A DNA stretch of 64,000 nucleotides from a virus, in the IMG/VR virus record IMGVR_UViG_3300045988_174698. One strand, 5' to 3'. Shown piece by piece: positions 27,646-53,400 of this stretch. The notes under the pieces were generated by a model. The model saw nothing but the letters and a program-made list of their open reading frames with translations, was not told the DNA's origin and did not search any database. Within the stretch, counting starts at the first letter, position 1. Each line of letters starts with the position of its first letter. The position numbers and the translations under genes were made by a program.

Positions 27646-28335
27646 ATGAACAGAAATAATTTTAAATCAGTATATTCTCAAGCATATATTTTATATGGCA
27701 CATCAATAGATACTACAAATTTTGAGGATATTTGCTTAAATGGATGAGAATTAATTGGAAATAGGCAAACTAGTTTATATAAATATACTACTCATACACA
27801 AGATAGAAAAATTAAGTTACCATGTAATGTAGAATTTATTGAAGCTGTATTTGGAAGACGTATGGATGCTCAAACTACTAACGATTACAGTGTATACCCT
27901 AATGTTTACAATCAATGGGTTGAGGAGTATATTGAATCTTGAAAACGAGATAAAAGTGTTTTTTATAATAGTGGAGTATTACTTAAGTATCGACAAGAAG
28001 GGGATTATTTAGTATTTGATCAAGACTATGCAAATGTTACAATCCTCTACCATGGTATTATTGTTGATAAGGATGGACTACCGTATCTTACAGACAAAGA
28101 AGTACAAGCATTAGCTGCGTATTGTGCTTATATAGATATATATAAGAAAAGTTTAATTCAGAAGGATGGAAATTTATTTCAATTAGCAGCGGCTGTTAAG
28201 AATGATTGGTTACGTTTATGTAATTCTGCAAGAATTCCTGCACATTTATCTCAAAATGATATAAATAATGTATTAGATGTAAAAACTAGATGAGATCGTA
28301 AAATGTATGGGAAAAAATTCTCTCCTATATTATAA
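27646..28335 (+). CDS. hypothetical protein (~229 aa; 3 TGA=Trp)
   Basis: ATG 27646 opens a frame of 230 codons (counted) to TAA. It is absent from the track because of the TGAs. Confidence 0.45.
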
Positions 28336-32300: not shown

Positions 32301-32975
32301 TCTACTTCTATAAATGATGTTTTTCTAGAATTTAATAGAGAAGATAGAGTTGTTGATATTCAATATAATAGAGTCTCTTTATTAGATGCTAAAATTGATA
32401 TTGATTTTGAAGAATCAGGAAAGTACTCTAATGTAAACTTAAAAAATTTAGGAAGAATAACAGACCAAAAAATTGTTAAATCTAATAGTGTAAAAGTTGA
32501 AAATATAGAATGATATACTTTAGATAGTATAAACAATATAAACTTTAATTATCAAAGTTTATTTAATTTTATTGACGAGTCAAGAAATAAAATATTAGAA
32601 TATAGTAATGTCGACCCAAGTTCATTATTATGTGATTTACCAACCACACGAGATAATCCATTGTATAATTTTGCTCACGCATTAACTGCAATGTTAAAAG
32701 TACATAATGCGTCTAGTAACAATAATAATATTTATAATGATATAATTTGCAATAAAGATTTTACTACAGATGATATAGGTGGTGATGTTGCTCCTGCAAT
32801 GAGAGATGGAACTATTGGTAACTCTATACTTCCAACTATATCTATAATAAATGAATCGGATAGAATAACTATTTTAGAACCGCCTGAAACAATGGGCAGT
32901 AATATTGATTCTTTAATGCAAGTTACTCAGGAATTTAAAGAGACTTACAAGAGTATAACAACAGACATAACATAA
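29331..32975 (+). CDS. giant virion-associated protein (~1214 aa; ~15 TGA=Trp), function unknown
   Basis: Track ORFs 29331, 32274 and 32661 are all in frame 0. My read-through shows regular TGAs (checked at 30012, 30258, 30750, 30927, 31326, 31383, 31443, 31539 and 31689) and no TAA/TAG. I could not verify frame continuity unambiguously around a GGGG run near 31797-31817. Confidence 0.5.
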
Positions 32976-35900: not shown

Positions 35901-37723
35901 ATTATGGAAGTATTTGACAAGAATCAATTATTAGAACACCAAATGCAATTTATGGGGTTGATACTTACGCTAAAAAAATCTGGAAATACAATGCAGAAGG
36001 ATTTAGGCTAATATCTGATATGGTAGTTCAGAGATTCTTGAATGATAATATAATATTAAATGAAGAGGATAAGTATCCTATAGTAGCATTAAAGAATGTA
36101 AAGACTCACTACAATAACTATAAAGGTGATGTAATGTTTACATTCTATAATGGAAATAAGGTATGAGATTTATGCTATAACGAACGTCTAGAGAAGTGAA
36201 TCACTAAATATAGTTGAACTCCTTTATCTTCAGCCAATGTTAATAACATTTTCTTAACTTTGGATCGTCAGAGAGCTTCATTATATGGAATTATATATGA
36301 TAATATTAACACAAATTCAGGAGCTCATATTGAGGAAAGATTCGAAGAAAACGAGGTTGATAAATTAAATAATGAAAAAGAGAGTTTAGAGAAGGGAAAT
36401 TTACCAGAGAATTCTACTAGAATAGAAGAAATTGATAGAAGGATTGAATATATTGATAAAAACTTTATTTCTGGAAGAACCTGTGGTAATCTATGAGAAT
36501 ATGATAATATCAAGAGAACTATAGTTATTAAAGGCTATGATTTCTTTGAGAAATTTGGAATAAGAATAACATCTATTACATCATCTATTTTAGATACAAA
36601 TGGAGTTGAGCATATAGTTGAGTTCACAGATTCTCCAAAAACAGAATATGATATTAAATGTAAAATTATTAATGGATCTTACAAACCAGATGGTTCAGAA
36701 TCTGAAATAGAATATTCTCAATACTTAGTTGGAGATATAGATCCAGAAAGACTTCAGAAAAAAATTGGTATAATCCAAAATGGAAGGAACTTGGAATTAA
36801 CTATAAATGATTTTGAAGAAGTTTCAAAATTATTATATTTAAAAATTGATTTTGAAGTAACTCCAAAAATAGTTTCTACATATATAGATAATTCTGAGAA
36901 TATTTCAAGTCAAACTAATGAAAATAAAGTATCATCTTCTAGTAATTCATTTAAGGAATCTATAGTATTAATTAGAGACTATAACTATTTAGTTCAGTCT
37001 AAGATGGAGGATAAAGTTAAAGAATATGATCTACTACTTAAGAATGGATTCTATATGCATGGTAGAGCGGGTGTATTTGATGAAATAAATTATTTCGATC
37101 AAAATCCAAATAATGAGATACATCCAACTAAATGATATGACAAACAAGAACCATTTGAGTTTGAGTTTGTAGTAAATAATCCAGCAGGAATTCATAAGGT
37201 ATTTGATAATTTAGTCTTAATATCTAATAATGTAGAGCCAAATAGTTTAGAATTTGAATTAGTTGGTGATGTTTATGATTTTAATAAAGCTGGGATTTAT
37301 CAATCAGAACATGTAGATAAGGAATCTTATTGAAATCCTGATGGATCTTTTGATGAAGATAAATATAACAATGATAAACATTCTAAAGAATTTAGTGGGA
37401 CTGAATATAGCCAAGAATTTAGTGATAATATATCTATTGATAGAGATCCTGTGTTAAATCAATATTTTATCAAGGTAGATCAACCTGTTCTTAATATTAA
37501 GAGAGTAGGAAGGCGTTTAGGAAATATTGAATATAAGGAAGATAGGTGATATAATACTATTACTCCAATTCACTATAAAATTAAACGTAAAGACGGAGTA
37601 AAATCTGACTTAAAGTCTACTAGAATTAGAGACAAGTGATTAAAAATTAGAATTAAGTATACTGGCGATAAACTAGTAGTTATAAATGCAATCCAAACAT
37701 TATTAAGATTAAGTTATGCTTAA
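32975..37723 (+). CDS. giant virion-associated protein (~1582 aa; ~13 TGA=Trp), function unknown
   Basis: Track ORFs 32975, 34019, 35459, 36260 and 36791 are all in frame 2. My read-through of the gaps shows only TGAs. It ends at TAA at about 37721-37723, overlapping ATG 37716. Confidence 0.6.
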
Positions 37724-39068
37724 ATATAATTTGAATAACTGGGTTTCCCTTTCTAATGCTGCTTTTGGTGGCAACGGAAAGGGAACTGGTAAAATAACTA
37801 TACCAAATGCTATAGGGACTCAAAGTATAGTTAAAAAATCAGATTTAGGTCCTGTTATCAGTGAATCTAAATTAATATCTGCAACTAAATCTCTAAATAA
37901 AGTTGCACCAGTAAAAGAGGATAAAGCTTTAAATAAAAAGATACAAACAGAAGTTAATAATAAACTCTCAAAATCAGCTAACAAACCGTCTTTTGGGCAG
38001 AAATTATCTATGCTTGATGCAGAACATGGAGAAACATTTAATGCAATAGGATCTGCAATTAGTGGGATTAATGCATCATTAATAGGAGATGAAAAAACTG
38101 GTAAGGGGGCTGAGACAGCTCATAGTATAACTAACACCGTTAATTCATTAATTCCTAGTAGTGGTATAGGAAGTATGGCAAATGCTGCTGGAGGAATGAT
38201 TGGAAACCTAATAGGAGGCACTAAAGATAGAGTTCATGGTACTGGATCTGCAGTTGTTGGCACAGTTTCTAAAGTGGCAAGTAATTTTGGTCCAGTTGGT
38301 ATGGCTGTTGGCGCCGCTTTAAATTTATTAAATGGCATTGGAGGTAAGAGAGTAGATTCATTAGCTGACATGACTGACCAATTTGGGTCAGGTTATGGAG
38401 GTTCACAATCAGATGTTTCGGAATCTATTAGTAAGTACTCAGGGAAAAAGGCTGGATTGTTTGATTTTGGATTTGCCAAAAAAGGAAATAAAGCAATACA
38501 AGAAGCTAGAAAAACTCAAAATACAATATTGGGTATTATGGATGAGGCTAAACTAAGAAAATCAAACTCTGCAGCGGATACTTATTTATCTCAAAATCAA
38601 AATAGATATGCAGGATATGAGCCTAAACTATTATTGTCTAAGAGAGGTATGAAATTTCCTGAATTAGATCGTGCTAGAGAAATCATTAGTTCCTGATCAA
38701 CCAAATCTACAGAAAATCAAGATACTCAGAAATTTCAACTTGGAGGTAAAATGAACCTAATTCCAGAGGGAGCTTTACATGCTAGAAAACACAATTTAGA
38801 GGAAGTAAATCCAGAATTAGAAGGGCAAATTACAAAAAAAGGTATTCCAGTAATAACTCATTCAGAAGGAGGAGTTACTCAAACTGCGGAGATTGAAAAG
38901 AATGAATGAACTCTTAGAAAAGAATTTACCGATCAACTAGAATCTTTGTATAGTCAATATCAGGAGGATCCTTCAGATGATATAGTTATAGAAGCAGGTA
39001 AACTAGTTTGTTTTGAGTTGTTAAAGAATACAGATGATAGGAGTGGTTTAATTAAAAGTATAAAGTAA
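37716..39068 (+). CDS. Gly-rich internal virion / ejection-like protein (~450 aa; 2 TGA=Trp)
   Basis: Track ORF 37716-38696 continues 124 codons (counted) to TAA 39066-39068. It has Gly/Ala/Ser-rich low-complexity segments (GIGSMANAAGGMIGNLIGG..., GMAVGAALNLLNGIGG). Confidence 0.55.
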
Positions 39069-39069
39069 T

Positions 39070-39963
39070 ATGCCATTGGATATAAGATCACAAGTTGTTA
39101 CAGCTCTGGATAATATTAATAGAAATCCAGAGCTGTATACTCCTACAAAACCAACTATACCTTTAGAAGCAAGAATTAATGATCTAAAAGAAACTAATCC
39201 TAACAAATATAGAGAATATATTTCTACATTAACATCTTCTGCAAATAGTGGAAATGAAGAAGCCAGAGAGTTGTTAGGAAAGATAGGAGAGGATGCTGCT
39301 AGGCAGAGAAGAGGGTATGAAGGATTAAACGAATTTATGGCAGCTTCAACTGGAGGATTACCTGGAATAATTGCAAATTACTTACCTAAAATAATAGGAA
39401 GTGCTTGAAATGGATATAGTATGTTTGATCCAGATAGTCCTGGCCTATTTACTAAAAATTACCAAGAAACACACCCTAAAACTACACTTGGCCTAAATAT
39501 AGCATTAGGGGCCATAGCTGGATATCCATTTATAGTTAAACAAAAGCCTTTAAAAAGTGATATTCCAATCAATGCTACTATAAATACTAATAAGCCAATA
39601 TTTTATCCAAAACTTCATTTTGTAAAAAATAGTCAACATAATAATATCACTTATTTTGATATATTTGCTGGGAAAAATAATAATATTGGTAAAGTTGCTT
39701 TAGAAACTATAGGAAATAATCAGGCACATATTCATCCTGAGTTGAGTCGTAATTTGAGAGGAAAAGGATTTGGAAAAGCTACATATTTAAATATGCAACA
39801 AAAGTATCCAAATTTACAAATTCGCTCATATTTACAGAATGCTGGAGAACAAGGAATCAGTGAAGCTGCTAAACGTGTTTGAAAATCCTTAGTTCAAGAT
39901 GGAGCAGCCTATTCTATTGGGGATAATTATTTATTTAAACCTAATTTATGAAAGAAACAATAA
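39070..39963 (+). CDS. protein with C-terminal GNAT-family N-acetyltransferase-like domain (~297 aa; 2 TGA=Trp)
   Basis: Track ORFs 39070 and 39421 share a frame (…IIGSA-W-NGYSMF…). The segment ...IGKVALETIGNNQAHIHPELSRNLRGKGFGKATYLNMQQ... is a classic GNAT motif A (R-x-x-G-x-G/A after a beta strand). Confidence 0.5.
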
Positions 39964-40565
39964 TTGAAATAGCAGATAAGAAATATAAGGTCTTAGTTGC
40001 AGAAACTGAAGAAGAAAAAACCCAAGGACTTTCTAATGTAGAGTCTATGGAGGATTCAGAGGGTATGTTGTTTAATTACTCTAGTAATCCACAAGGTTCT
40101 CTAGTATTTAATACTAAAGATATGGATTTTCCTATTGATATTATCTTTATAAATGATGATGATGAAGTAGTTGCAGTAGAATATGGGGAACCTAAATCAG
40201 ATGAAGTTATAGAGTGTATTACAGATCCTGATGAAAAATTAGTATATGTTCTTGAAGTTAATGCTAATTCTGGAATTCAAATAGGAGATGAATTAGACTT
40301 TGAGGATGATGATATTTCTGATGAAGAGGTAGAAAAGATGTATATATTAGGATCAGATGGCAAGCCTCAAATGGATCTAGTTGGTGGTGAGCGGATTATA
40401 TCAATTAAAGAAACTAAATCATTAATTAGTAAAGCGAAACGTGCCAATAAATCTAAGAAGGATTCTGACTACAAGAAATTAGGAAAATATATATTCAAAA
40501 TATTAAAAAAACAAGATGAAAGAAAACCAGAATATGTTTTGGGTCCTAATAAAAAAGGAGAGTAG
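39948..40565 (+). CDS. DUF192-domain protein with acidic C-terminal extension (205 aa)
   Basis: The conserved DUF192 pattern (…QGLS…GMLF…F.TKDMDFPIDIIFINDDDEVV…) is present. Intact ORF ending at TAG. Confidence 0.55.
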   Translation: MKETIIEIADKKYKVLVAETEEEKTQGLSNVESMEDSEGMLFNYSSNPQGSLVFNTKDMDFPIDIIFINDDDEVVAVEYGEPKSDEVIECITDPDEKLVYVLEVNANSGIQIGDELDFEDDDISDEEVEKMYILGSDGKPQMDLVGGERIISIKETKSLISKAKRANKSKKDSDYKKLGKYIFKILKKQDERKPEYVLGPNKKGE

Positions 40566-40797: not shown

Positions 40798-40878
40798 AGC
40801 ATTAAATGAATATATGATAATGAAAGAGTTAACTAGAAGAATTTATAAAATTATTAATTAAATAAAGTAAATATTTAT

Positions 40879-41163
40879 ATGAAGGTAATTAAATTTATGC
40901 AGGAAGGTGGTAGTGCTCCTGCACCTGCTGCACAACAGCCAGCAGCAGCACAGCAAGATCCACTTGTAGAAATTGCTAATATGATGGCTCAAGGATTACA
41001 GTCAGGTGACTGTAATATGCTAGCACAGGCTTGTGAGGCATTCCTTTCGTTACTTTCACAGGCACAAGCTCCTGCACAAGAACCAATAGGAGCTCCTGTT
41101 GATTCGGAGCCTGTTTTCAAGAAGGGTGGTAAGCTTGTAAAACGCAAGAAATGTCGTAAGTAG
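40879..41163 (+). CDS. small Ala/Gln-rich protein with basic C-terminus (94 aa); N-terminal VIKFMQEGG motif
   Basis: Intact ORF ending at TAG, followed by a terminator. Confidence 0.5.
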   Translation: MKVIKFMQEGGSAPAPAAQQPAAAQQDPLVEIANMMAQGLQSGDCNMLAQACEAFLSLLSQAQAPAQEPIGAPVDSEPVFKKGGKLVKRKKCRK

Positions 41164-41179
41164 ATCATTGAAAGATAAA

Positions 41180-41215
41180 AGGGGGATTGTAGATGATCAA
41201 TTCCCCTTTTTAAGT
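41180..41215 (+). terminator. rho-independent terminator candidate
   Basis: The hairpin AAGGGGGATTG...CAATTCCCCTT is followed by a T-run. Confidence 0.45.
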
Positions 41216-41234
41216 ATAATATAAGTGTGATAGA

Positions 41235-44200
41235 ATGGCACAGATAATTAAATATCAAAAAGGTGGTTCTACTTCTAATAAAAGATATGGTACTTTTACT
41301 ATTGATGGAAATAAGTTTGAAGTTGATGATAATTTTTTAAATCAATTGACAAACTATGGTAAATCATTAGACGACGAAACAGCCTATCAATTTAGTAAAA
41401 TTACAGATGCTCTAAGGAATGGAGAAAATTTATCCTATGATTCTAATGCTGATAGATTAGATGGAAATGTACAATTTGATGTTACAAATAGTCAAAATAA
41501 TCGATTGGGGAATCGTCGAAGTAGAATAGGAAGGTTTTTTGGTAATTCGTGAAGAGGTAAGGAAAATGCATCTAGAAATGCAATTAATGCTTTAAAGGGA
41601 TTTACTTATACTACTCCTACTCCTGGTAATTCGATATATGATTGATCTAATACTATAAATGTCGAGTATAAAAGAGACAAGGACGGGAACTATGAATTAG
41701 TTAATGGAAATAAAGTTTTTATACAAGGAGCTAATAATTTACAAGTTATAAGAAGACTTCAGGCCCTAAAAGATATTGCTAGTTATACTGATAAAGATAC
41801 ATTTAAGGGTTATGGTAATCTTGATAAACAAGCTTATATAGATCTTTACAATCGTTTAGGGGATGAAGGTATTAAGAGTTTAATAGAACGTGTGGAAAAT
41901 GGGACATGAACCGAAGAGGATAAGCTAGCTCTAGATGATATTGGTATATTTTTAGATAGTAATTCTACTAATAAAAATTCTTCAACTAACCAATCAACTT
42001 CTAGACTTACTGAAAAAGAAGTCAGAGATAACATTGATCCTAATACTCACTCCATTGCTGGTTTAAAAGTTACTACAAATCCAGATGAGTCATATAATTT
42101 AGTAGATGTAGATGGAGATCAAGTTTTTGGTGGTAGTCGAGTATACATAAATGACGAAGTTCTAAGAGATAAGCATCAATTTGATCCCTTAAAAGGATGA
42201 TTTTGGTTTGATGGTAAATTAATCCCAAAGAGTGTTGCAGAAGATGATAACTCAGTATTTTATAGAAACCTAGATCAGTGGATAAATAGCAATAAGAATA
42301 ATATATATGGTACTAATGGAATAGATGTTTGGGGAAATAGTTCTAATCCTTTTACAAGTTATAATGATTCTTTCTTTCTTCCTGGATTAAGAAATAATAA
42401 TAGAGGAATGATGTTTAGAACATTAAAAGATCCCAATGATCCAAATTCAGTAGTATATGAATATTATGATAAAGATTCTGCTAGAGATAGATATGGATTT
42501 GTAACTCCTGAAGCAGTTAAAAGATTAAAGTACAATATTAACACTGGAGAATCTGAGGAGTTAGATCCATTATCAGGAGTTTCTATAAATTACGAGGATA
42601 TTACTAATCCAGTTACTAAATGGTCAGAAAGAGCAAAAGGATACTATGAAATTAATATTCCAGGTTCTAATGGCACCACAGCTGCAACAATCTTTCGAAA
42701 TCCATATGATGTAAATGATGTATGATTTTATAGAGATGGAATGGAACAACCTTATCAAATGACACCAGAAGAAGTTCAATCTTTAATAAACTCAGGAGCT
42801 CTTTCTGCTAATCCTGAAAATCATACATTTACTGGTGCATTATCTCGTAAATGACAGGAAATTCTTTCTCAAAATACTCAGAATTTTAGAGGCAATACAT
42901 TAGGAGGTGTAATTATAGATTCTTCGTTACTTCCAATTTCTACTTTAATTAGAAGTTTATATACTACTAGAACTCCTATGGTTAATGGAGAAAGATGAGA
43001 TAGAGCATCTAGAAACATATTTGATAATAAACCTAAGTTTCAATCAGGAGGTAGAATCAATGCAGCAAAAGTTTCTAATATTGAAAATGATACCACAGCT
43101 AAGACAATAACTGAAAGAACTGACAAAGATGTTGCTAAAACCTCTTTAAAAAATGGAGATTGAAAAGATTTAACTAAAGCGGATAAGATGCAAATAGCTA
43201 GCATTGCTGGCGATTTAGCATCATTAATTGCAGCTATCCCTACTGGTGGTAATCCAGTAGCTGGTGCTTTAGGGTATGGATCAACTCTTGCTCAGTTTGG
43301 AGCTGATGTCAGCCGTGATGGTTTTGATTTAGGAGACCTTGGTAACTTAGCTCTAGGACTGGGATTAGATACAATAAGCTTACTCCCTGGTGTTGGAATT
43401 GGTGGTAAAATGGCTAAAATGAGTAAAACAGTTAAAAAATCTGCTTCATTATTAAAGAATATACTATTAGCCTCAGGAGCTACTAGTGCAGTATCAGCGG
43501 TTAACAATATAGTATCTGGTAAAGGAACTTTAGATGATTGAAAAAGTTTATCTACTGGTCTTTTTGCTGTTAAAGGAATAAAGAATGAAGTCCAAAATAT
43601 AAGATCTACTCAATATAAAGGAAAATCACCTAAATTAGAAGCTAAGACAAAAGAAAGCTTAAAAAGAGAATATATTGATAAAGTAGTTGCTGATAAGGAA
43701 TTAGGATTTGTTGATGGCCAGCCAGCTCGATGGGCTAACTCTGATGGTACTGTTAAGAACTATAAGCAAGCAATTGAAGATTTAACTAAATCAGGCCATC
43801 TAAAAATATCTAAAGCACAAGAGGCTAAATGAACAGCAGAGGCTGCCAAATCTAAAACAAATTCTACTATATCAAATATATTTTCGGGAAGTTGAAATCC
43901 TATGAGTAGAAATTATAGATTTAGAATGTCTAATAGACAACTTCCAGATGATTTTGATATAAGATCTTTAGCAGGCCACACTTCTAAATTAAGAACTTTA
44001 GGAAGAGTTATTAGAAGAAATCCTGAAATTGCTTCTCAATTACAGTCTAATGGATGACTACTTCCATCAACTTTACAGTTTAATTCTAGATATGGAGGAG
44101 ACTGGTTTTATAGAAATCCTGTATTTAAAAGATTTATTAAATTTAAAGCTCCTTCTACGTTAATGTTATCCGAAAGTACTGGAGTACGAGATATACCTGT

Positions 44201-45572
44201 GACTTTAAGTGGCATAAAAAATCCTACTGAGATTCGTAATATTGATCCTTATTTACAACAAGTTGATGACTATATTGGGTTAAGATTTCACAAAAAGGGT
44301 GGTAAGATTATTAAAGCACAAGGAGGTTCTAATAGTAATTGATTTCTTGATAAAAATGGGAAACCAGTAAATGAGCACAGTGAATCAGTTATTGTTACTG
44401 CAAAACCAATAGATGTTTTTTCAAACCCTAGGCTTCCCTCAGATTTCTTAGGAGTTAAGCCTTTAAATGACATTGATCCTAAATTAAGAGAGTCATTAAC
44501 TAAACAGTCTAAAGGAATTAATACAAATAATATTGAGAAGCCATCTTCAAGTATGTTTGGTTCTAGTAGAGATTTAAAATGATCTGGTATTAATCCTGAT
44601 ATGTTACTTGGTATTGGTGATTTTATAGCATCTACAAGAGGTATTAATCGTACTGCTCAAAAGATGAAAGACGCTATTCGTAAGGGAATGATAGGTTCTC
44701 AACAGCAAATGCCAACTGAATTCTACTCTAGATTTAGTGATAATGGTTTGAATAGAATGTATGATGATCGAATCAAGGAAATGCGAAAATATAAAACAGT
44801 CACTAGTGATCCAAATCAAGTAATGGCTGAGAGGTTGATGAGAGATGCAGGAATTGATCAAATAAAGGGAGAAAGAGATACTAAATTTTCACAAATGATA
44901 GATCAGTATAACGATAAACTACTTGCTCAAAAGCAACAGTATGCAAATATAAGAAATCAAATTAGTAATGAAAATAGGAATCGTTGGTATCAAGGATTAG
45001 CACAACTTGATATGGCAGATGCTAATAAGATAGGACAACAAACACAAAATGTTAAAAATCTTATTTATCAATTTAGGCAGGATTATGCTAAAGATTTACA
45101 GAATAGAACTGCTATTGAAGATAAGTTGGATTCTATTAATGCTGAAACTAAATATCAGAATGATTTAAAACAACTTTTTGAAAGCTTTGGTGGTTTTAAC
45201 AGTATGTCTGCAAGTGAAAAAGAGCAATGAGGAAATAATTGGTTAGGATATATAAGTTATAAATATCCTGATCAAGTGTCTAATATACGTAGTAAAGCAT
45301 TTTTTGATATTTATCAAGATCAAGCTAATGATCCTAAGAGAAGACATTCTTGGATTAGATGATTTGATGATTTAAATGTCCCTAGGTATGTTAGTCAAGT
45401 ATCTCCAAAACTATCTGATTCTAAATATTTTAGGTATAAAAGAGGAGGTACAATTCAAAGGTTTAGAGAAACAAATGAACAAGCATTTTTAGATCAGCAA
45501 AAAGCTATTAATAAAGCTGTGAATGACTTAAATAATAATATCATAAGGCTTTTTATAAAAATGATGTCATAA
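41235..45572 (+). CDS. giant cargo/ejection-like protein (~1445 aa; ~13 TGA=Trp) with Gly-rich hydrophobic segments and a DVDGD motif
   Basis: Track ORFs 41235, 42408, 43188 and 44601 are all in frame 0. My read-through shows TGAs only, and I counted the tail to TAA 45570-45572. The N-terminus reads MAQIIKYQKGGS. GGNPVAGALGYGSTLAQFGADV...GLGLDTISLLPGVGIGG resembles a tape-measure/ejection protein. It also carries NLVDVDGDQVFGG. Confidence 0.6.
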
Positions 45573-45573
45573 T

Positions 45574-47451
45574 ATGAAGATAAAAAGATATCAAACAGGG
45601 GGTATATACTATACCCCCTTTTCTAGAGATTCAATAGCTCAGCAAGAATCTCAAAACACACCAAGTACAACAACAGATAATAAAAAAGAAGAACTTATAC
45701 AGAAGGAAATTATTAATGTACTGAAGGAAAATGGGCTTCCTAATGATGTTGATTATTTTCTGTCTAGAGCTAACACATTTCTAAGAAAGTCTCAAAATTT
45801 AGGATCGCTGTTTGAAGGAAACCAGGAAACATCTTACGATATGTCAGATTTAATTAGAATACAATCTTTGGCTAATAGAATTAAACATAATAACAGTTTA
45901 TATCAACAGGCTAGCAAACAAATTAATGATGAAGGAGCTGGATCAGAAGTAGCTATTACTAATACTGGTGGCATGTATGTTTTTGATAATGATAATGGCG
46001 TTAAAATAGTATCTTTAGATACATATTATGAAAATCCAGATAAATATAGGATATTAACAAACTCGGAGTTAATCCGACTTAGAGAAGAACAACCAGAGTT
46101 AGCTTACAATAGTGATATTCTAACTGACTTATCAAATACTGTTGGCATGGAGTCAATAGTAGATTATGTGAAATCAACTATTGGTGCTTTTGGTACTAAT
46201 AAATCTTCAAATCAATTTGATAGATATACTTCGAAGCAAAAAGATCAAATTGAAAAAGGATTTGAACAGTTGTTGGGTTTTGATTCTCCTGATGGCATAT
46301 ATAAAGTTACAGAATCTACTAATACTTCTGATCAAGGATATAGTGACGATAAAAGCTTAGAAGCTGCTGTTAATTATCTTTATAGAACATTACCTAGAAA
46401 TATGAAAAATGTCTTAAGAGCCAATGCAACAGCTGAAGGTTTAAATCCAAATGACCCCAAAGATGTTCAAAATTTATTAAAAATAGCAGTTATTGAACAT
46501 ACTGATCATACTAGGGAAATTAAACAACAATTAGATTATGATTCTACAGCTAGTAGTGCTAGTGGAAAAGGGTCATCAAGTAAACAGGTTGAAATGACTC
46601 GTGAGGAAATGATTACTACTGGAAACGGAGGCGTTCAATATACTCCTATAACTATTGCACATTCTAAGTCTAAAGGAGGTATAAAAGCTTTAGCACAGCC
46701 TTATGGCAAACCAATAGATACCACTGGTAAGCAAATTGGTATGGGTACACTTAGAGATGTGTTTGCTAAAGAAGATAGACTGGGATCAAGTTTAGCTTTA
46801 AACTCAATAACATTTGGAAATAGATTACTTACAGAAAGTGAATTAGATAAAGTAGTTTATGATGGAGTAAGTAATATTGAAAGAACATACTTACCGATTG
46901 ATCAAAACATATATGTGACAACAGGTAAGAAAACTCCTGATCTAGATGCACAAAATAGGTTTGAAAAATTCCAAGAATGACTTAATGCTGGATATGGAGT
47001 CACTCCAAATAGTATAACTATGAAGTTGAACGAACTAAATCTTGATATTTATAGAGAACCAGAAACAGGAGAATGAGCATTTAGAGAAGCCCATCCTTTT
47101 ATTATTGTCAATGGGTATGTTAGTGATAAAGCTGTTGACATTGATGACTCTGAATGAGTTGATCATGTAAATAGGGACGAGGGGTCTTATATATTTGATT
47201 TATACTCTAAATATATTAATTATGGGTCAGATACTCCTTCGAAAAGTAAACATAGAAATAACTTTGATGGAGGATTATTTGGTATAGGAGACGCATCCTC
47301 AATGTATAAAAGTGCTATATTTATTCCAATAACAGATAGTGCTATTGCAACAGTAGTATCTAATCATCAATTAACAAGTGCTAGTAATTATACAGATATG
47401 TTAAATCGCAGGAGACTACTACAGGAGTCTCAAATACAGACAAATTTCTAA
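45574..47451 (+). CDS. cargo-like protein (~625 aa; 3 TGA=Trp); N-terminus MKIKRYQTGGI
   Basis: Track ORF 45574-46980 continues 157 codons (counted) to TAA 47449-47451. Confidence 0.55.
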
Positions 47452-47453
47452 TT

Positions 47454-50400
47454 ATGATTGAGCAGAAGAAAAATGATTGGTTGGCGACCTTATTCTTTTC
47501 GCCTAATAAAACTCCACAAGACTTAGCTAATTTAGGTATAACAACTGATAATTCCAGCTTATTAGACAAGGAGTATTACAAAAAAGTTCCTCAAATACAA
47601 GAAGCTTTTAAAGACAAGTCTGGTAATTTTGACGATAATAAATTTGATCAGTACTATCAAACAGCTTTAAAGTTATATAATGATGCTGATAATAGTAAAT
47701 TAGTTCAGGATTTACAGGATTTCTATGAATATGATCCTAATGATTACTTTGCTCCTATAGGGGGGAAAGTAACGAATATGAGACCAAAATTAGTTCAATT
47801 TTCTAATCCTGAGAGAAGAAGTAGGGGACTAAGTAATCTTAGAGAATCTTCTGCTCCAACAATGTCTATTAGAGAAGTTGCTCAAACTAATAAGGTATTT
47901 AACTTTGATACCCAGCAATTTGAAGATTGGACTCCTAATGATTGAGGAGGATTATCAGCAGTGACAAGACCTACATTAGTATTAGCTCAATGAGATGAAG
48001 ATGGGGAACATGAGATTAATGGTAGGATTGTTAAGCACAATAAAGGAGACCTAAAATTCAATGAAAGTGGAGATCCTTTTTATGAGACTCTGGGAAATAG
48101 AGATATTGCAAATAAAGATATATTGCATATATCTGACACTTTAACTATCGATGGTAGCAAGTGAGATAAATATAATTTCTTTGATTCAGACGATCTGGAT
48201 AAAAGTGTCGTTGGCACAATGGCTAAAACAGCTTTTAAGGTTGGTATGATGTTTATTCCAGGTGTTGGAAAATATTATGGAGCGATGACTGCTGCTAAGG
48301 AATTAGGAAAATTATTTCCTGTACTTTTTAAAAGTATTGAAGGCATCGCAACTGGAGATATATCAACATCAAGATCAGCTCAGATGGCAACTGATATACA
48401 AGCATGATTTTCTCGGTTCGATAGTAGCGTCTCTGACTATGGAAGACAGAGTTTTTGGAATGTAGAAAATTTAGGTAAATTAATTGAAGATAGCTCTATG
48501 CAATTATTCCAACAAAGAGTTATTGGAAATATTCCAAAGATGTTTATTCCAAAAAATTCTATTCCTAGTGAAAATGCCATTAAATGAGGTAGAGGATTAG
48601 CTTTAGCTTATATGGCTGGAACTTCTTCCACTGAAGCGTATAATGCGTTTAAGGAAGCAGGTGCTTCAGACAGAGTAGCGGGTTTAGGTATGTTATCTAC
48701 TATGGGAGCTATGTATGGTTTGATGAATAATGACTATTTCAAAGACTTTTGGTTTAGAGATACATATTTAGATAAGGCGAAAGTCCGCTCTGTTGTTAAG
48801 GAAGCTGCTGAACAATTATCATCTAAAGAATTTGCATTAGAGACCGCTAAGAAAACATCTACTTCTAAAGGAGCAGCTAAATGGCTTCTAGATATGCAGA
48901 AGAACATAGTAAACCGCATATCTAAGATGAAACCTGGAAATCTAATTCATGATTCTCTAAATGAAGGTGTTGAGGAAACTGTAGAAGAAATAACATCTGA
49001 TGCAATAAAAGCATTATATTCAGGTTTAAATGCACTAGGTATTGCTGATAAAGAAAGGAATTACAACTTTGGAATTACTCCAGAGGATATGATATCTAGA
49101 TATTTTACTTCATTTGTAGGAGGTGGTATTGGTGGCGCTGTATTTAGTTTACATAATAGATTTGATAGGAAAAATAACCCCATACTTAATAGTACACTAA
49201 CTCAAAATGATGATTCTCTAAAAGAGATAATTTATCTTTTAAGAGATGGTAAGGAGAACCAATTAAGAATGGAGTTAGATAGATTACATAAAGCTGGTAA
49301 GTTAGGTAGTACAAATCTTTCAGGCACTGAGTTAGAGTTTGTCAAAGATGGTAATATTACAAAAGCTCAGTATAAAAGTACCAGTTCTGGTGATTCACAA
49401 AATGATCTTTTATATCAACAAATAGGATTTTATATTGATAGAATTAATGAAGTTCTTAAAGAGGAAGGGTTAGATTTAAGTGATGCTGAGTTACAATATA
49501 TTACCCAACAAGCTGATATAGCAGGCAAGTCTATTGAAGAGACTAGGCAAGGGTATCTAAATCTTAAGAAGTTAAGCAAACAACAAACAATAGAGGATAA
49601 GATTATCTCATCTGGTTTGTATAGTCAAATTTTTGAAGATTGGAATAATTTAACTTCTGAAATAATCAAAACCAAAGTAGAACTAGAAAACTTGTTGACT
49701 CCAGCAGATAATGAACCAAAAACTCCAAAAGATATTGAAGCTCGTATTGAGGCTATGAGAAATAATAGTGAATATCAACGTCTTAGACTTAAGATAGACA
49801 CTCTTAGAGCTCAACGAGATGAAATACTTACTGGAAAGAAAAATGATTTCTATACAGGGCAGTTATTATTTGCTGCAAGTCCTCAATTAGTAGACAATTT
49901 TGTATCAGGATTTGGTATACATAATTATACTCGTTGGAAGTATAAGAAAGAATATGATAGTCTTCAGCAAGATGAAAAAGATAAAATTGATGCTGAATAT
50001 CAAGCATATAGTTCTTTAGAAGAAAAACAAAAAGTACTAACTGCTTATAATATTTTCTCTGAGATGCAGGAAAGTATGATTAATACTATGAAATCAGTAG
50101 GAGAAAAGATTAAAGATAGTAGTAAAATATACCTACCAGGAGCTACAGACTACAATGTTATATATGATCAAATTTCTAATAGACTAAAAGAGAGTAGAAC
50201 TGCTCTAGATAAGGCTATTGAAAATCTTCCAGAAGGAATATCATCTAATGAGGAAATAGATAATTTAAAATTAGATATTTCTAGGTTAGAGAACCACTTA
50301 AATCAAATTAAAAGCCTTAAATTTGAAGTCTTAAATCCAGCATTAAGCGAAGAAGGACGTAATATTCTTTATAGACCTGTAAGAATAGCAGATACAAGCT

Positions 50401-53400
50401 TAGCGTTTGATAACTACACTGATTCATATCTTGGCTATTTAGAATATATTAAGAATAATAATCTATATCTTGACTTAGTTGACTCAGATTTATCTAGTAT
50501 ATTATATAATTGAATTCAAATTAATAATTTAGAGAGTAATAATCAAGCTAATTGAATTAATAGAATTCAGTCTATTCTTGACAGTCAAGGAATTGACTTA
50601 GAAGGAATGGATGATGATATAGCAAACTTATCTAGTGAGTTGATTAAGATAGTTGATTATATTAAAAAGAATAATATTTCAGGAGCATTAGATCACTACA
50701 ATTATATTCTTAGAAGCGATCTGTCTGATACATTTAGTAATATATATCAGCTTGATTTAAAGAGTATACTACCAATTTTATTACCTTCTTTTGGAAGTAG
50801 ATCGTTCTATGATTATTTAGGAGAGGTACTAAATATCAAATCACAAATTGATACTAATCCTATATATGAATTAATTGAAGCGGCTTCAAATGTCGCTGGG
50901 TTAGATAATCAAGAGGTAACTAAATTAATTAGAGAGGAACAATTTAACTTTATTAACTCCAAGAAAGTAGAAGACTTTATTATCAGAGATAGACATTCTC
51001 TTGATAAATTAAAAGAAACAGTTAAATTAATTGATGCTATCTCAGCAATACTTGATGCTTCAGTAGATGGGGGCTTTAATAGCAAAATTAATGAATTTAG
51101 AGAATCATTAGAAAAAGAACTGTTACCTATAATAAGTGTTCAAGGGCAAATTAATATTATTTCTGATCTAGCACGAGTTAAGAATCAGTTAATAACCTTA
51201 ATAGATATTTCTGAAAGAAATCAATCTCAGAAACTTAGAGAGCAGAGAGATATAGCTATAAATATGAAGTCTAAATTTATTAGCTTGCTAACTGATGATA
51301 CTTCTATTCTTAAGGATAGGTTTATTAAGATATTCGGTATTGATTTAAAACAATTATCCTCAGATATTGAAATACCTTCTAGTGGAGAAGATATAGACTT
51401 TCCTCAATTAGAGCAAGCTTCTATAGCATTAGAAACTCGTATTTTTGAAGCAGTTAAAGATCTAAATCTTTCTGCTGATGAAGTAGCCGACAAAATAGTT
51501 TCGTTATTTGATAGTAATGAACTAGTAAAGTCAGCTCCAACTACTCTTAGTAAAAATCCTAGCACTGAGATTACTGTATATGATCAAATGGTTTATATTT
51601 CCACAATACTATCAACTCCTTCTCAAAATTTTTATAAAAAATTAAAAGAAGTAATTAGTAGCGAGGAATTTAGAAACGCTCCAATATTTTCTCAAGAATA
51701 CGCAGTAAGAGTAGCTTATTCTCAAATACTAAATAAGGATTTATTTAATAGTATTATAATTAAATTAAAAGATATTTTCCAGGATAATCCTGATACATAT
51801 ATTAAAACTAAAAGTCCTTTATTTAATTTTACAGTAGTATTTGGAGGAGCTGGAGTTGGTAAGACTAAAGGTGTTGCATTCTTATTAAAGAAGATGTTTG
51901 AAGATGCAAATTATATAACCTCAGCTCCAACGAGAAAGCAAACGGATAGACTTACAGATAGTGTTGAAAGTGATGGAAATTCATTTACTAAGAATGAACT
52001 TATAGAAAAAATACTGGGACGACAAATAAAGGATTCTGATATTTCATACATTAAGGATGGTGATAATAATATTAGTATTACTAGTAATGTTAATATAGAA
52101 GTTCTTAAAACTAATCTATTTGGTGATTCTAAGAATAAGATCTTATTTATAGATGAGATTAGTTGATATGATAGAATAGAGCTAGAGTTGATTAGTAAAT
52201 GAGCTAATACTAATAATGTATCAGTAATAGCATTTGGAGATTATAAACAGAATGCAGTTCAAACAGTATTTGGAAAGGAAGTTATTGATAGTGGAATTGA
52301 GGATACTATTAATATTAAAACTCCTGATCTTATTGCTCCACTACGACCTGATAATATAGCTAAATATGATAATTATATATCCTTGTCTCAGAGATTAGAC
52401 GAGATATATAAGCAATATTATAATAACCCTGCTATAGAGCCAAAATATCTTAGTGAATTTGCTGAAAAGTATTTACAATCTAATCCTATTGAGTTTAAAT
52501 ATTTTGAAGATAGTTTTATATTTGGAGGAGAAAAAATTATTAAAGAAGATGAAGTATTTTCACATATAGAAAAGTTAAAACAGTATTCTTCAGATATTGC
52601 AATAATTACGGACAATCCTAAGAAATATAACACTACCAAAGGAGTTAAAATTGTTCCTTTAAATAGTGTCCAGGGTGATGAATTTGATTATATTATTATT
52701 GATAAAAACTTTGGATTAACAAATGAAGGTAAAAGTCGAGGAGAATTCTATAAATTAAAAGATTTATATACTCTAACTCAACGATCAAGAAAAGGATCAA
52801 TTATTGTATCTAGAGGACTAGGAAATACAATATCTTCTAAACAAGATTCGACATCATCTGGAAACATTGAAATGCCAGAATCTCAAATTCAAGATTTTAA
52901 AGAATGAAGAATAAATGCTATTCCAGATATTACTGAATCAATAGAGTTTGAAGAATATCAATCTCAACAGCCTAATAATGAACAAGCTAACGCTCCTGTA
53001 GAGCCTGCTAATAATTCAGTAGCTACAGAAAATAGCACTCCTACTACAAGCCCAATAGAAAGAGATACTGAAGTTGAGTTTACCAATCCTATAAAGCCAG
53101 AGGTACACCAAGTATCTATGGCTCCTGAGCATACAGAACCTGTAAATAACTTACAAAATACTGTTACTTCAGATATCGAGACTAGTAAACCTATAACTAG
53201 ACCAGCTAAACCAGTAGTAGGAGCTAATGAATATGTAAGTACAGCGGAGAGTTGGATTGATTTTATTAATAATGATCTAATTAAATTTTATCAAACTACT
53301 GATAATAATTTGAAGAATATTATTAATACTACTCCTGAAATTACAGTACAAATTTCAAATTTAGTAAGAGCTTTCTTTGTTAATAATAGACATAAAGATA

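What the first reader, a model, noticed from the sequence alone, without database searches (positions are those of the whole stretch)
40879..45700. Three consecutive genes begin with the same (I/V)(I/K)(K/R)(Y/F)(Q/M)xGG N-terminal motif
The motif reads MKVIKFMQEGGS in gene 40879, MAQIIKYQKGGS in gene 41235 and MKIKRYQTGGI in gene 45574. The proteins are otherwise unrelated, with sizes of 94, 1445 and 625 aa. A shared N-terminal tag on adjacent putative cargo proteins is reminiscent of capsid-targeting or propeptide signals. These sort internal proteins into proheads and are removed by the prohead protease.
Basis: seen in the sequence. Interest (0 to 1): 0.6.

Follow-up and report, generated by a model that had tools for sequence, protein, structure and literature searches.

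The report
Conserved KYQxGG tag on crassvirus cargo proteins
A short, strongly conserved peptide (roughly I-I-K-Y-Q-x-G-G) sits at the start, at internal boundaries and near the ends of the proteins that a crAss-like gut phage probably carries inside its particle and injects into its host, so it looks like a real, apparently undescribed signal whose job (docking or cleavage) is not yet known.

Summary
The three genes only have the stated sizes if in-frame TGA is read as Trp, which the data support. All three start with a [IV][IK][KR][FY](x)QxGG tag. The window is a Crassvirales-like phage: the muzzle protein and tail ring protein 1 lie just upstream, so the tagged genes occupy the position of the crAss001 cargo (ejection) proteins C1 and C2.

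The tag is kept in every lineage examined, down to about 25% identity. It is kept in TGA-recoded, TAG-recoded and standard-code relatives, with synonymous Gly codons. AlphaFold places it in a disordered N-terminus.

It is not only N-terminal. The same box recurs inside the 450-aa and 1445-aa proteins and near the C-termini of the 94-aa and 1445-aa proteins. In 22 diverse homologues of the 1445-aa protein, the only invariant GG pairs are these four sites.

No protease was found in the sequence examined. A related FGG box in crAss001 gp45 is present, uncleaved, in the solved virion.

I favour a retained docking or assembly motif (0.4) over a cleavage site (0.25). The giant RNAP-associated proteins lack the tag, so it is not a universal packaging signal. 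I found no literature describing it.

The parts
32975..37723 (+). Muzzle protein (1582 aa, 12 in-frame TGA). It anchors the locus as a crassvirus tail/cargo region.
   Evidence: Pfam PF25731 crAss_MUZ, E 5.4e-32, 111 bits against a cut-off of 27. PF25729 crAss_MUZ_C is weak.
27646..28335 (+). Tail barrel ring protein 1 homologue (229 aa).
   Evidence: Pfam PF24228 CrAss_Ring_1, 28 bits against a cut-off of 27, E 1.7e-6.
37716..39068 (+). 450-aa cargo-module protein. It has a Gly-rich hydrophobic middle and a conserved C-terminal module that begins with the box.
   Evidence: 2795 homologues. In 26 representatives K339, Q341, G343 and G344 are invariant. Relatives carry a degenerate N-terminal tag such as MHNKIxKxQxG or MRKLIKKYWVGGG. 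Weak hhalign match of residues 184-210 to the gp45 TM region.
38724..38747 (+). Internal box TQKFQLGG (aa 337-344 of the 450-aa protein).
   Evidence: The string KFQLGGKMNLIPEG is nearly identical in 119 of 120 listed homologues.
39948..40565 (+). DUF192 protein (205 aa), a conserved member of the module with no box of its own.
   Evidence: Pfam PF02643, E 4.6e-18. Present at the same place in L001, L002, L045 and L046.
40879..41163 (+). 94-aa protein made of an N-terminal tag, an Ala/Pro/Gln-rich linker, a helical part and a C-terminal basic box.
   Evidence: Both ends are conserved in L005, L011, L014, L017, L035, L045 and L046.
40885..40911 (+). N-terminal tag VIKFMQEGG (aa 3-11).
   Evidence: Orthologues read MKVKKFQEGG, MKIREYQEGG, MKIKKYQAGG..SKFQVGG and ..QKFQMGG.
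41110..41160 (+). C-terminal box plus basic tail PVFKKGGKLVKRKKCRK (aa 78-94).
   Evidence: PVF[KRA]KGG[KS] is kept in 7 lineages. Similar basic tails after GG end the classical crassvirus C1 proteins.
41235..45572 (+). 1445-aa protein (16 in-frame TGA), the largest tagged protein. It sits at the C1 position.
   Evidence: 135 homologues, none with a Pfam domain. The most conserved block is a Gly-rich hydrophobic region at aa 650-730.
41244..41267 (+). N-terminal tag IIKYQKGG (aa 4-11).
   Evidence: GG is invariant in 22 of 22 representatives at 30-65% identity.
43029..43052 (+). Internal box KPKFQSGG (aa 599-606). In many relatives it is a tandem GGxΦKxQxGG.
   Evidence: Q603, G605 and G606 are invariant in 22 of 22. 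The tandem form is seen in L011, L014, L017, L046 and L047.
44283..44327 (+). Internal double box RFHKKGGKIIKAQGG (aa 1017-1031).
   Evidence: K1020, G1022, G1023 and G1031 are invariant in 22 of 22.
45429..45449 (+). C-proximal box FRYKRGG (aa 1399-1405), about 40 residues before the C-terminus.
   Evidence: The K and GG are invariant in 22 of 22, reference positions 1405 and 1407-1408. Kept in all 8 lineages.
45574..47451 (+). 625-aa protein (3 in-frame TGA), at the C2 position.
   Evidence: 107 homologues. The AF2 model of a 71%-identical homologue has a well-folded core, mean pLDDT 77. Weak fold matches to crAss-like proteins and a phi14:2 'structural protein'.
45577..45603 (+). N-terminal tag KIKRYQTGG (aa 2-10), followed by the conserved IYYTPF.
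   Evidence: G9, G10 and Y13 are at least 90% conserved and P15 is invariant in 65 sequences. Residues 1-42 have pLDDT below 50.
47454..60684 (+). Two giant proteins (2562 aa with an SF1-helicase-like P-loop, and 1850 aa) at the position of the crassvirus RNAP-associated cargo. Neither carries the tag.
   Evidence: Pfam AAA_19/AAA_30 at residues 1459-1601. Their conserved N-termini, MIEQKKNDW.. and MSVKCGY.., have no box.

Best explanation
The box (consensus Φ-Φ-[K/R]-[F/Y]-Q-x-G-G, with a basic variant F-x-K-K-G-G-K-Φ-Φ-K) is a short linear motif of the smaller internal or ejection ('cargo') proteins of a large-genome crAss-like phage.

Proposed mechanism: it is a five-residue β-strand-like segment ending in a Gly-Gly turn, lying in otherwise disordered chain. 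It marks the N-terminus, the module boundaries and the C-proximal end of these proteins. It stays on the mature protein. It serves as a docking element for a shared partner inside the particle: the portal wing, the tail-barrel or muzzle lumen, or the other cargo proteins. That would let the C1/C2-type proteins be co-incorporated and held in a defined order for N-to-C extrusion through the tail.

What is shown:
- The motif exists and is clustered in the cargo module.
- It is under strong protein-level purifying selection.
- It lies in disordered context.
- It occurs at N-terminal, internal and C-terminal positions.

What is inferred:
- These proteins are virion cargo (from synteny).
- The motif binds a partner.
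- The motif is not cleaved.
For: 1. Locus identity. The muzzle protein and ring protein 1 lie upstream. The gene order MUZ, then small proteins, then a C1-sized protein, a C2-sized protein and giant proteins matches crAss001 gp44-gp47, whose gp45/gp46 are mass-spectrometry-confirmed cargo.
2. Selection acts on the peptide, not the RNA. Gly codons at the tags use all four synonymous codons, and in the TAG-recoded relative L045 the motif Gln is itself a recoded TAG.
3. In 22 representatives of the 1445-aa family (30-65% identity), only 83 of 1448 columns are invariant. Among them, the only invariant GG pairs are the four motif sites, each with its flanking K or Q.
4. The tag is among the most conserved parts of the 625-aa family, yet AF2 leaves residues 1-42 disordered while folding the core confidently. 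That combination is typical of a partner-binding linear motif.
5. Several features are easy to explain by binding and awkward for cleavage. Tandem copies lie 6-8 residues apart (GGxΦKxQxGG). A copy lies 10 residues from the C-terminus of the 94-aa protein. Every stand-alone ORF keeps the tag only 2-8 residues after its Met.
6. Classical crassvirus C1 proteins are full of related Φ-x(0-3)-GG boxes and end in basic tails after a GG. In the crAss001 virion, the ordered portal-bound domain of gp45 (425-552) starts exactly at A-F-G-G, and the tail-bound helix (214-245) starts 4 residues after A-Y-G-G. The boxes therefore sit where cargo chain becomes partner-bound, and at least one is retained.
7. 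An 82-aa ORF in relative L046 equals gp45 residues 369-428 (53% identity, E 7e-20) and is bracketed by boxes. The boxes delimit evolutionarily mobile modules.
8. In the standard-code relative MT835470, a further protein with a degenerate N-terminus (MKVIPKLQQGNT, no GG) carries a glucosaminidase domain. An internal box lies exactly at the end of that domain. A peptidoglycan hydrolase fits an ejected protein.
Against: - No partner has been identified, and no complex prediction was possible with these tools.
- Virion residence of these particular proteins is inferred from synteny only.
- Homology of the window proteins to crAss001 gp45/gp46 is not demonstrable. hhalign gives probability 20% for one TM-like stretch and nothing for C2.
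- The crAss001 boxes (AFGG, AYGG) are looser than the KYQxGG box and may not be the same element.
- The giant putative cargo proteins lack the tag, so it does not explain packaging in general.
- A conserved disordered peptide ending in GG is equally what a protease site looks like.
- My re-analysis of published MALDI peak lists did not find full-length gp45 in bands 1-10 of crAss001 virions. That leaves room for processing.
Confidence: 0.4

Rival explanations
1. The box is a maturation cleavage site (cut after G-G). Short N-terminal leaders of 9-11 residues would be removed from the 94-, 1445- and 625-aa proteins. The 1445-aa protein would be a polyprotein cut into pieces of about 595, 417, 382 and 40 residues by a phage or host protease. 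This resembles T4 or phiKZ propeptide removal, or the GG-X processing of adenovirus and African swine fever virus.
For: - Conservation is concentrated on the N-terminal (P) side of GG, with variable residues after it.
- The tags have a near-constant length from Met to GG.
- The tags are disordered.
- The boxes lie at module and domain boundaries, for example at the end of the glucosaminidase domain in MT835470 and around the gp45 369-428 module.
- After the tag, the 625-aa family continues with IYYTPF. This loosely resembles the untagged N-termini of classical C2 proteins, such as MPINFYTPTF in p-crAssphage gp46.
- Full-length gp45 was not detectable in bands 1-10 of the published crAss001 gel MALDI data, whereas gp47 was (52 matches in band 3).
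- Candidate enzymes exist in the order. p-crAssphage gp45 is annotated as fused to a zincin protease. crAss001 gp66 has retropepsin-like HHpred hits in the authors' table. A DUF192 protein of unknown function is a fixed member of this module.
Against: - No peptidase domain was found among the window proteins scanned, or in the Pfam hits on record for window genes up to about 27.6 kb and 10 kb upstream. There is no HExxH in the cargo proteins.
- The crAss001 model of gp45 425-552 spans G427-G428 without a break.
- Tandem sites 6-8 residues apart, and a site 10 residues from a C-terminus, would release tiny peptides with no obvious purpose.
- The motif does not fit known GG-specific protease consensus sequences. 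P4 is Gln or Lys rather than a hydrophobic residue, and the leader is too short for a double-glycine leader.
- The mass-fingerprint negative is weak: the protein is low in abundance, and bands 11-13 are missing from the stored file.
Confidence: 0.25
2. The box has no dedicated partner in the virion. It would be a flexible hinge or turn, plus basic and aromatic residues. Such an element could let long cargo chains fold back and thread through the portal and tail. Alternatively it could act after ejection, through interfacial membrane, peptidoglycan or DNA contacts while the channel forms.
For: - Gly-Gly preceded by an aromatic residue and flanked by Lys or Arg is typical of flexible, surface-active or nucleic-acid-binding linkers.
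- The boxes separate modules.
- The tagged proteins contain Gly-rich hydrophobic, TM-like blocks, as expected of channel-forming ejection proteins (PMC10172136).
- The 94-aa protein ends in a strongly basic tail.
Against: - A mere hinge would not need an invariant K/Q/aromatic register over 30-65% sequence divergence.
- A hinge has no reason to sit 2-8 residues from the initiator Met of four different protein families.
Confidence: 0.2
3. The resemblance is chance, low-complexity composition, or a nucleotide-level signal. One such signal would be a Shine-Dalgarno-like GGAGG, or an A-rich translation enhancer just after the start codon.
For: - Within the window alone, a blind comparison of N-termini is not significant after multiple testing.
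- Lys-rich, A-rich codons after ATG are common in AT-rich phages.
Against: - The motif is conserved in 107, 120 and 120 listed homologues of three families, and across three genetic codes.
- Gly codons vary synonymously (GGT 20, GGA 15, GGG 8, GGC 5), and few instances spell GGAGG.
- Internal and C-terminal copies are equally conserved.
Confidence: 0.02

Closest known systems
Cargo protein C1 (gp45) of Bacteroides phage crAss001 and C1-type proteins of other Crassvirales (p-crAssphage gp47/gp48, crAss002 gp30, DAC17 gp54)
   Same: - Same genomic position, immediately after the muzzle gene.
- Gly-rich TM-like segment.
- Many aromatic-x(0-3)-GG boxes, and basic tails after a GG at the C-terminus.
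- Boxes sit at the starts of the two segments seen bound to portal and tail barrel in the virion.
- One gp45 module (369-428) exists as a separate boxed ORF in a relative of this phage.
   Different: - No significant sequence homology between the window proteins and gp45.
- The published atlas states that the epsilon group lacks a detectable gp45 homologue.
- Here the box has a stricter form (ΦΦK[FY]QxGG) and is used as an N-terminal tag on three to four separate proteins rather than inside one.
- The motif is not mentioned in the crAss001 papers that I read.
Capsid targeting sequence (CTS) of phage T4 internal proteins (IPI-III, Alt) and propeptides of phiKZ-like inner-body proteins (from my own knowledge)
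   Same: A leader of about 10 residues is shared by otherwise unrelated internal virion proteins encoded side by side. It directs or accompanies incorporation. T4's MKTYQEFIAE even resembles MKIKRYQTGG superficially.
   Different: - T4 and phiKZ leaders are cut by a dedicated prohead protease after a Glu consensus (L/I-x-E, or S/A/G-x-E).
- Here no protease was found, and the motif ends in GG.
- Conserved internal, tandem and C-terminal copies exist, and a related copy is retained in crAss001 virions.
GG-X polyprotein and precursor processing by clan CE cysteine proteases (adenovirus protease, ASFV pS273R), and double-glycine leaders cut by C39 peptidases (from my own knowledge)
   Same: A Gly-Gly pair is preceded by a conserved short recognition stretch. 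Sites are distributed at N-termini and between modules of virion core proteins.
   Different: - Position -4 is Gln or Lys and the aromatic residue is at -5, not the hydrophobic -4 of (M/I/L)xGG or of double-glycine leaders.
- The leader has only 8-9 residues before GG.
- No CE or C39 protease was detected in the region examined.
Ejection (internal core) proteins of podoviruses T7 (gp14/15/16) and P22 (gp7/16/20)
   Same: A set of internal proteins stored near the portal and ejected before DNA to build a trans-envelope channel. Some carry peptidoglycan hydrolase domains, as does the MT835470 protein with the degenerate N-terminus.
   Different: As far as I know, no shared linear tag is described for those systems.

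Membership tests
Crassvirales virion tail/cargo module | Muzzle protein (crass fold) encoded immediately upstream | tested here: met
   PF25731, E 5.4e-32, 111 bits against a cut-off of 27, for 32975-37723.
Crassvirales virion tail/cargo module | Tail barrel ring protein | tested here: met
   PF24228 CrAss_Ring_1, 28 bits against a cut-off of 27, for 27646-28335. The match is marginal but above threshold.
Crassvirales virion tail/cargo module | Gene order: muzzle, then C1, C2 and giant RNAP-associated proteins | tested here: met
   Window order is 1582 aa MUZ, 450, 297, 205, 94, 1445, 625, 2562, 1850 aa. crAss001 order is gp44 to gp47. Relatives keep the same order.
Crassvirales cargo protein C1 (gp45 family) | Sequence or profile homology to gp45 | tested here: inconclusive
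   hhalign of the 450-aa family against gp45 gives only a 27-column match of Gly-rich TM-like segments, probability 20%. BLASTP and PDB searches found nothing. A relative's 82-aa ORF is 53% identical to gp45 369-428, but that ORF is absent from the window.
Crassvirales cargo protein C2 (gp46 family) | Sequence, profile or fold homology to gp46 | tested here: inconclusive
   hhalign of the 625-aa family against 5 classical C2 proteins gives no match, probability 0.06%. Foldseek against BFVD gives weak hits to crAss-like proteins (E 6e-5 to 5e-3) and the phi14:2 'structural protein' (E 3e-3), all with low TM-scores.
Crassvirales cargo proteins | Physical presence inside virions | not testable with these tools
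   The phage is uncultured and known only from metagenomic contigs.
T4-type capsid targeting sequence / prohead-protease propeptide | Short conserved N-terminal leader shared by unrelated internal proteins | tested here: met
T4-type capsid targeting sequence / prohead-protease propeptide | Signal confined to the N-terminus | tested here: not met
   Invariant internal and C-proximal copies at aa 605, 1022 and 1404 of the 1445-aa protein, aa 343 of the 450-aa protein, and aa 83 of the 94-aa protein.
T4-type capsid targeting sequence / prohead-protease propeptide | Prohead protease gene in the genome | tested here: inconclusive
   No peptidase family among the window proteins scanned, or in the Pfam hits on record for window genes up to about 27.6 kb and 10 kb upstream.
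T4-type capsid targeting sequence / prohead-protease propeptide | Leader removed in mature virions | not testable with these tools
   This needs proteomics. The only indirect datum is that crAss001 gp45 is modelled continuously through G427-G428.
GG-X processing sites (adenain / pS273R) or double-glycine leaders (C39) | Consensus with a hydrophobic residue at -4 (and at -7 and -12 for leaders of 15-30 residues) | tested here: not met
   Position -4 is Gln or Lys, the aromatic residue is at -5, and only 8-9 residues precede GG.
GG-X processing sites (adenain / pS273R) or double-glycine leaders (C39) | Cognate cysteine protease encoded nearby | tested here: inconclusive
   None found in the sequence examined. 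The full genome was not seen.

The most novel reading that the evidence does not exclude
The 1445-aa protein is a true polyprotein. In this reading the whole C1/C2-type cargo set of large crAss-like phages matures by cleavage after four to eight invariant K-[F/Y]-Q-x-G-G sites. The protease would be of a kind not yet recognised in tailed phages. Candidates are the module's own DUF192 protein or a retropepsin-like enzyme such as crAss001 gp66. This would be a GG-specific core-protein processing system analogous to those of adenovirus and ASFV, but in a bacteriophage.
Probability: 0.15. Interest if true: 0.85.

Novelty: new variant of a known kind. Interest (0 to 1): 0.58.

Why it matters
Crassviruses are the most abundant phages of the human gut. 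They carry megadaltons of protein cargo, yet nothing is known about how that cargo is selected, positioned or released.

A short, invariant and portable peptide shared by the C1/C2-type proteins gives a concrete handle. It can be mutated, fused to reporters, searched for in cryo-EM maps (including the unassigned muzzle-bound segment of crAss001), or looked for as a neo-N-terminus in proteomics.

It also links the 'epsilon-type' large crAss-like phages, said to lack a gp45 homologue, to the gp45 architecture through shared boxes and a shared module.

If the motif is a docking signal, it could be used to load foreign proteins into crassvirus particles. If it is a cleavage site, it would reveal a new phage maturation protease.

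Tried and rejected
- **DNA similarity to GenBank phages:** none.
- **PHROGs:** no family for any of the six module proteins. Only 'virion structural protein' PHROGs matched the muzzle gene.
- **Pfam:** only DUF192 in the module.
- **AF2 of the 450-aa protein:** too poor to use, mean pLDDT 45. The planned fold comparison of its C-terminal module with the portal-bound domain of gp45 could not be done.
- **PDB searches with the 450-aa protein and its profile:** only weak coiled-coil-like matches to coronavirus spike HR1 (E 0.002), taken as compositional.
- **Profile comparison with gp45 and with classical C2 proteins:** no convincing homology.
- **PDB Foldseek with the 625-aa family model:** nothing.
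- **Shine-Dalgarno-like or other RNA-level explanation:** rejected on synonymous codon variation. There are no Rfam hits in 36-48 kb.
- **TGA as Gly (code 25):** rejected. Codons aligned to TGA are mainly TGG, TAT and TTT. The first attempt, using very distant relatives, was uninformative.
- **Zincin idea prompted by the p-crAssphage gp45 annotation:** no HExxH in the window's cargo proteins.
- **Literature searches:** nothing found for a crassvirus cargo motif or protease, or for DUF192 function.
- **Peptide-mass-fingerprint re-analysis of the published crAss001 gel bands.** The method works: gp47 gives 52 matches in band 3. gp45 gave only chance-level matches in bands 1-10, and bands 11-13 were cut from the stored file, so the result is inconclusive.
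- **Alignment-based locus search with the widest alignment:** failed. A narrower one worked.
- **Look-up of the window's 170-aa protein to see downstream sequence:** not on record.

Full report
**1. What is in the sequence**

Under the standard bacterial code the region is broken into short ORFs. The frame starting at 41235 contains 16 in-frame TGA and no other stop until TAA at 45570. The frame from 45574 contains three TGA before its TAA. Reading TGA as sense raises plus-strand coding in long ORFs from 15,161 to 20,436 residues. It also gives a continuous, all-plus-strand gene map.

In alignments with relatives, the codon most often opposite TGA is TGG (68 of 455), followed by TAT and TTT. 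GGA accounts for only 12. TGA therefore most likely encodes Trp. They begin MKVIKFMQEGGS, MAQIIKYQKGGS and MKIKRYQTGGI. BLASTP finds nothing else in common between them.

**2. Is it more than chance?**

Inside this one window the case is suggestive, not proven. A blind best-segment comparison of all 42 N-termini ranks the 41235/45574 pair sixth of 861, at a score where two or three chance pairs are expected. A regex written after seeing the motif gives three N-terminal hits against 0.23 expected. It puts 8 of 9 total hits in the six-gene block that holds 16% of the residues (P about 3e-6).

Conservation settles the matter.
- The 625-aa protein has 107 homologues. Almost all full-length ones start MKIK[RK]YQxGGIxYTPF, down to 23-30% identity. 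G9 and G10 are invariant in 21 divergent sequences and at least 90% conserved in 65.
- I compared eight lineages: the window phage, relatives at 71, 67, 55 and 53% identity, and three distant ones. One of these (L045) uses TAG rather than TGA recoding. The 94-aa, 1445-aa and 625-aa families keep their tags. The 450-aa family carries a degenerate version, such as MHNKIxKxQxG.. or MRKLIKKYWVGGG.
- A standard-code GenBank relative, MT835470, keeps them too.
- The Gly codons at the tags use all four synonymous codons. In L045 the motif Gln is itself a recoded TAG. Selection therefore acts on the peptide, not on an RNA signal.

**3. The motif is not only N-terminal**

The same box occurs in frame at five further places:
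- 38724-38747, TQKFQLGG, inside the 450-aa protein.
- 41110-41160, PVFKKGGKLVKRKKCRK, the C-terminus of the 94-aa protein.
- 43029-43052, KPKFQSGG, in the 1445-aa protein.
- 44283-44327, RFHKKGGKIIKAQGG, in the 1445-aa protein.
- 45429-45449, FRYKRGG, in the 1445-aa protein.

These are positionally conserved in all lineages, often as a tandem GG-x-Φ-K-x-Q-x-GG.

The cleanest result comes from 22 non-redundant representatives of the 1445-aa family at 30-65% identity. Only 83 of 1448 columns are invariant. The only invariant GG pairs are at reference positions 10, 605, 1022 and 1407, which are exactly the four motif sites, each with its flanking K or Q. KFQLGGKMNLIPEG is almost unchanged in 119 of the 120 listed homologues of the 450-aa protein.

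No in-frame copy occurs in the two giant downstream proteins. One marginal regex hit lies elsewhere in the window, in the 1542-aa protein.

**4. What the locus is**

- The 1582-aa protein just upstream is a crassvirus muzzle protein (PF25731, E 5e-32).
- The 229-aa protein at 27646 matches tail ring protein 1.
- The window is part of a ~167.5 kb IMG/VR contig, and relatives are 160-176 kb. That size matches the large epsilon/zeta crAss-like groups (145-192 kb) described in the review I read.
- In crAss001 the muzzle gene gp44 is followed by gp45 (cargo C1), gp46 (cargo C2) and gp47 (RNAP-associated). All were detected in virions. gp45 was seen bound both to the portal (residues 425-552) and to the tail barrel (214-245).

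By position, the 1445-aa and 625-aa proteins correspond to C1 and C2. The 2562-aa protein (P-loop at 1459-1601) and the 1850-aa protein correspond to the giant cargo.

Sequence homology to gp45 and gp46 could not be shown. The AF2 model of a 71%-identical homologue of the 625-aa protein gives only weak fold matches to crAss-like proteins and to a phi14:2 'structural protein'. Assigning these proteins to the cargo class therefore rests on synteny.

**5. Links to classical crassvirus C1 proteins**

- crAss001 gp45 contains aromatic-GG boxes at residues 20, 209, 263, 332, 427 and 562, and a related D-G-G at 373. It ends in a basic tail after a GG.
- p-crAssphage gp47/gp48, crAss002 gp30, DAC17 gp54 and cr111 show the same pattern.
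- An 82-aa ORF in relative L046 is 53% identical to gp45 residues 369-428 (E 7e-20) and is bracketed by boxes, as that segment is in gp45.
- tblastn matches of gp45 to other crassviruses start and stop near these boxes.
- The portal-bound domain of gp45 in the solved virion begins at A425-F-G-G428. The tail-bound helix begins four residues after A-Y-G-G210.

The boxes therefore delimit modules, and at least one is retained in the mature particle.

**6. Structural context**

AF2 folds the core of the 625-aa family confidently (454 residues with pLDDT of 70 or more). It leaves residues 1-42, including the invariant tag, below pLDDT 50. AF2 could not fold the 450-aa protein. A highly conserved segment in a disordered region is the usual signature of a linear motif that is either bound or cut by something else.

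**7. Mechanism**

I considered four readings.

*Retained docking or assembly motif (favoured, 0.4).* This reading explains several things:
- why stand-alone ORFs keep the box right after the Met;
- why boxes come in tandem 6-8 residues apart;
- why one lies 10 residues from a C-terminus;
- why boxes coincide with the starts of partner-bound segments in crAss001, where one is visibly uncleaved.

A β-strand plus Gly-Gly turn that augments a sheet of the portal wing (described as SH3-like loops interdigitating with gp45), or of a tail-lumen protein, is a plausible physical form. That part is inference.

*Cleavage after GG (0.25).* In its favour:
- conservation is concentrated on the P side;
- leader length is constant;
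- the boxes sit at domain boundaries, for example at the end of the glucosaminidase domain of a protein in MT835470 whose N-terminus is a degenerate form of the tag without GG;
- candidate enzymes exist in the order;
- I could not find full-length gp45 in bands 1-10 of the published crAss001 MALDI lists, although gp47 was recovered with 52 matches.

Against it:
- no peptidase domain was found in the sequence examined;
- the motif fits no known GG-protease consensus;
- the crAss001 model is continuous through G427-G428.

*Generic hinge, or an element that acts after ejection (0.2).*

*Chance or an RNA-level signal (0.02).* Effectively excluded.

Because the giant putative cargo proteins lack the tag, it cannot be a universal capsid-sorting signal. 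It is specific to the smaller, C1/C2-type, probably tail-proximal and channel-forming set.

**8. Comparison with known systems, and novelty**

The closest functional analogy is the T4 capsid targeting sequence and the phiKZ inner-body propeptides. Two defining features fail or are untested here: N-terminal exclusivity, and a protease with its consensus site. GG-X processing sites and double-glycine leaders share only the GG.

The closest relatives by biology are the crassvirus C1 proteins. Their boxes are looser, and the papers I read do not remark on them. My literature searches found no description of this motif.

I rate it a new variant of a known kind: a shared linear signal on phage internal proteins. 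It is of moderate to good interest, because it offers an experimentally tractable entry into crassvirus cargo handling.

Noticed in passing
whole window, e.g. 41235-45572 (16 TGA), 29331-32975 (16), 5518-10146 (14), 47454-55142 (14): In-frame TGA is used as a sense codon throughout the structural genes. TAG and TAA remain stops. TGG is the codon most often aligned to TGA in relatives, so Trp is the likely meaning. A distant relative (L045) instead recodes TAG (112 in one gene), and MT835470 uses the standard code.
   Followed up: partly
window 19328-20056, 21169-22071, 22466-23545: Three paralogous genes have similar N-termini (..KYYIGVH.., ..KLYFGVH.., ..KIYVGVH..). The copies of the latter two in an identical contig carry NUMOD1 / I-HmuI-like hits. 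They look like homing endonucleases inserted between the tail-fibre and head or tail-barrel genes.
   Followed up: partly
window 39948-40565: A DUF192 (PF02643) protein is a fixed member of the cargo module in this phage and in all relatives examined, including one with an N-terminal extension (L046, 305 aa). Its function is unknown, and it is not among the crAss001 genes between the muzzle gene and gp47.
   Followed up: partly
window 40557-40581 and the 313-nt gap 40566-40878: A perfect 11-bp-stem hairpin (GGAGAGTAGAA TTA TTCTACTCTCC) straddles the stop codon of the DUF192 gene. It is followed by the only long AT-rich intergenic gap of the module, just before the first tagged gene. This could be a transcript boundary or an RNA stability element. 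There is no Rfam match.
   Followed up: partly
window 13780-14130 (tag-like stretch 13792-13818): A 116-aa protein outside the cargo block begins MANTILRFINQGGI, which resembles the tag. It scored as high against the 94-aa N-terminus as the 41235/45574 pair did. Conservation in distant relatives was not checked.
   Followed up: no
window 37716-39068, residues ~74-178 of the 450-aa protein family: The family profile gives weak matches (E 0.002-0.1) to heptad-repeat HR1 regions of coronavirus spike S2 in the PDB. This is probably coiled-coil composition, but such a region would suit a membrane-active ejection protein.
   Followed up: no
window 43180-43420 (aa ~650-730 of the 1445-aa protein): The most conserved block of the 1445-aa family is a Gly/Asp-rich hydrophobic stretch with 20 invariant positions of about 80 (..PTGGNPVAG..FGADVSRDGFD..LGLD..LPGVG..). 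It follows the box at aa 605 and is reminiscent of the TM-like segment of gp45.
   Followed up: no
L046 4617-4865: An 82-aa stand-alone ORF in a distant relative is 53% identical to crAss001 gp45 residues 369-428. The large crAss-like phages, reported to lack a gp45 homologue, therefore do carry at least one gp45 module as a separate gene.
   Followed up: partly
MT835470.1 113887-116832 (L054) and 106500-107327: Two further proteins with tag-like N-termini lie away from the cargo block in this relative. One is a 981-aa protein with a glucosaminidase domain (PF01832, residues 609-737), with a box at the end of the domain. The other is a 275-aa basic, Cys-containing protein resembling p-crAssphage gp48.
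   Followed up: partly
crAss001 (NC_049977), gp66; Supplementary table of PMC6235969: The authors' HHpred table lists gp66 (171 aa) with 99% probability hits to retropepsin-like aspartic proteases (3SLZ, 3OGP, 5C9F). This putative phage protease is not discussed in connection with virion maturation.
   Followed up: no
window 1515-2633 and 10 kb upstream (L055): The left part of the window and the sequence upstream encode a long series of tail-fibre-like proteins. They carry collagen-like repeats, Phage_fiber_rpt hits and a hyaluronidase-type N-terminus, MASVIKFYRGLSSDY...
   Followed up: no
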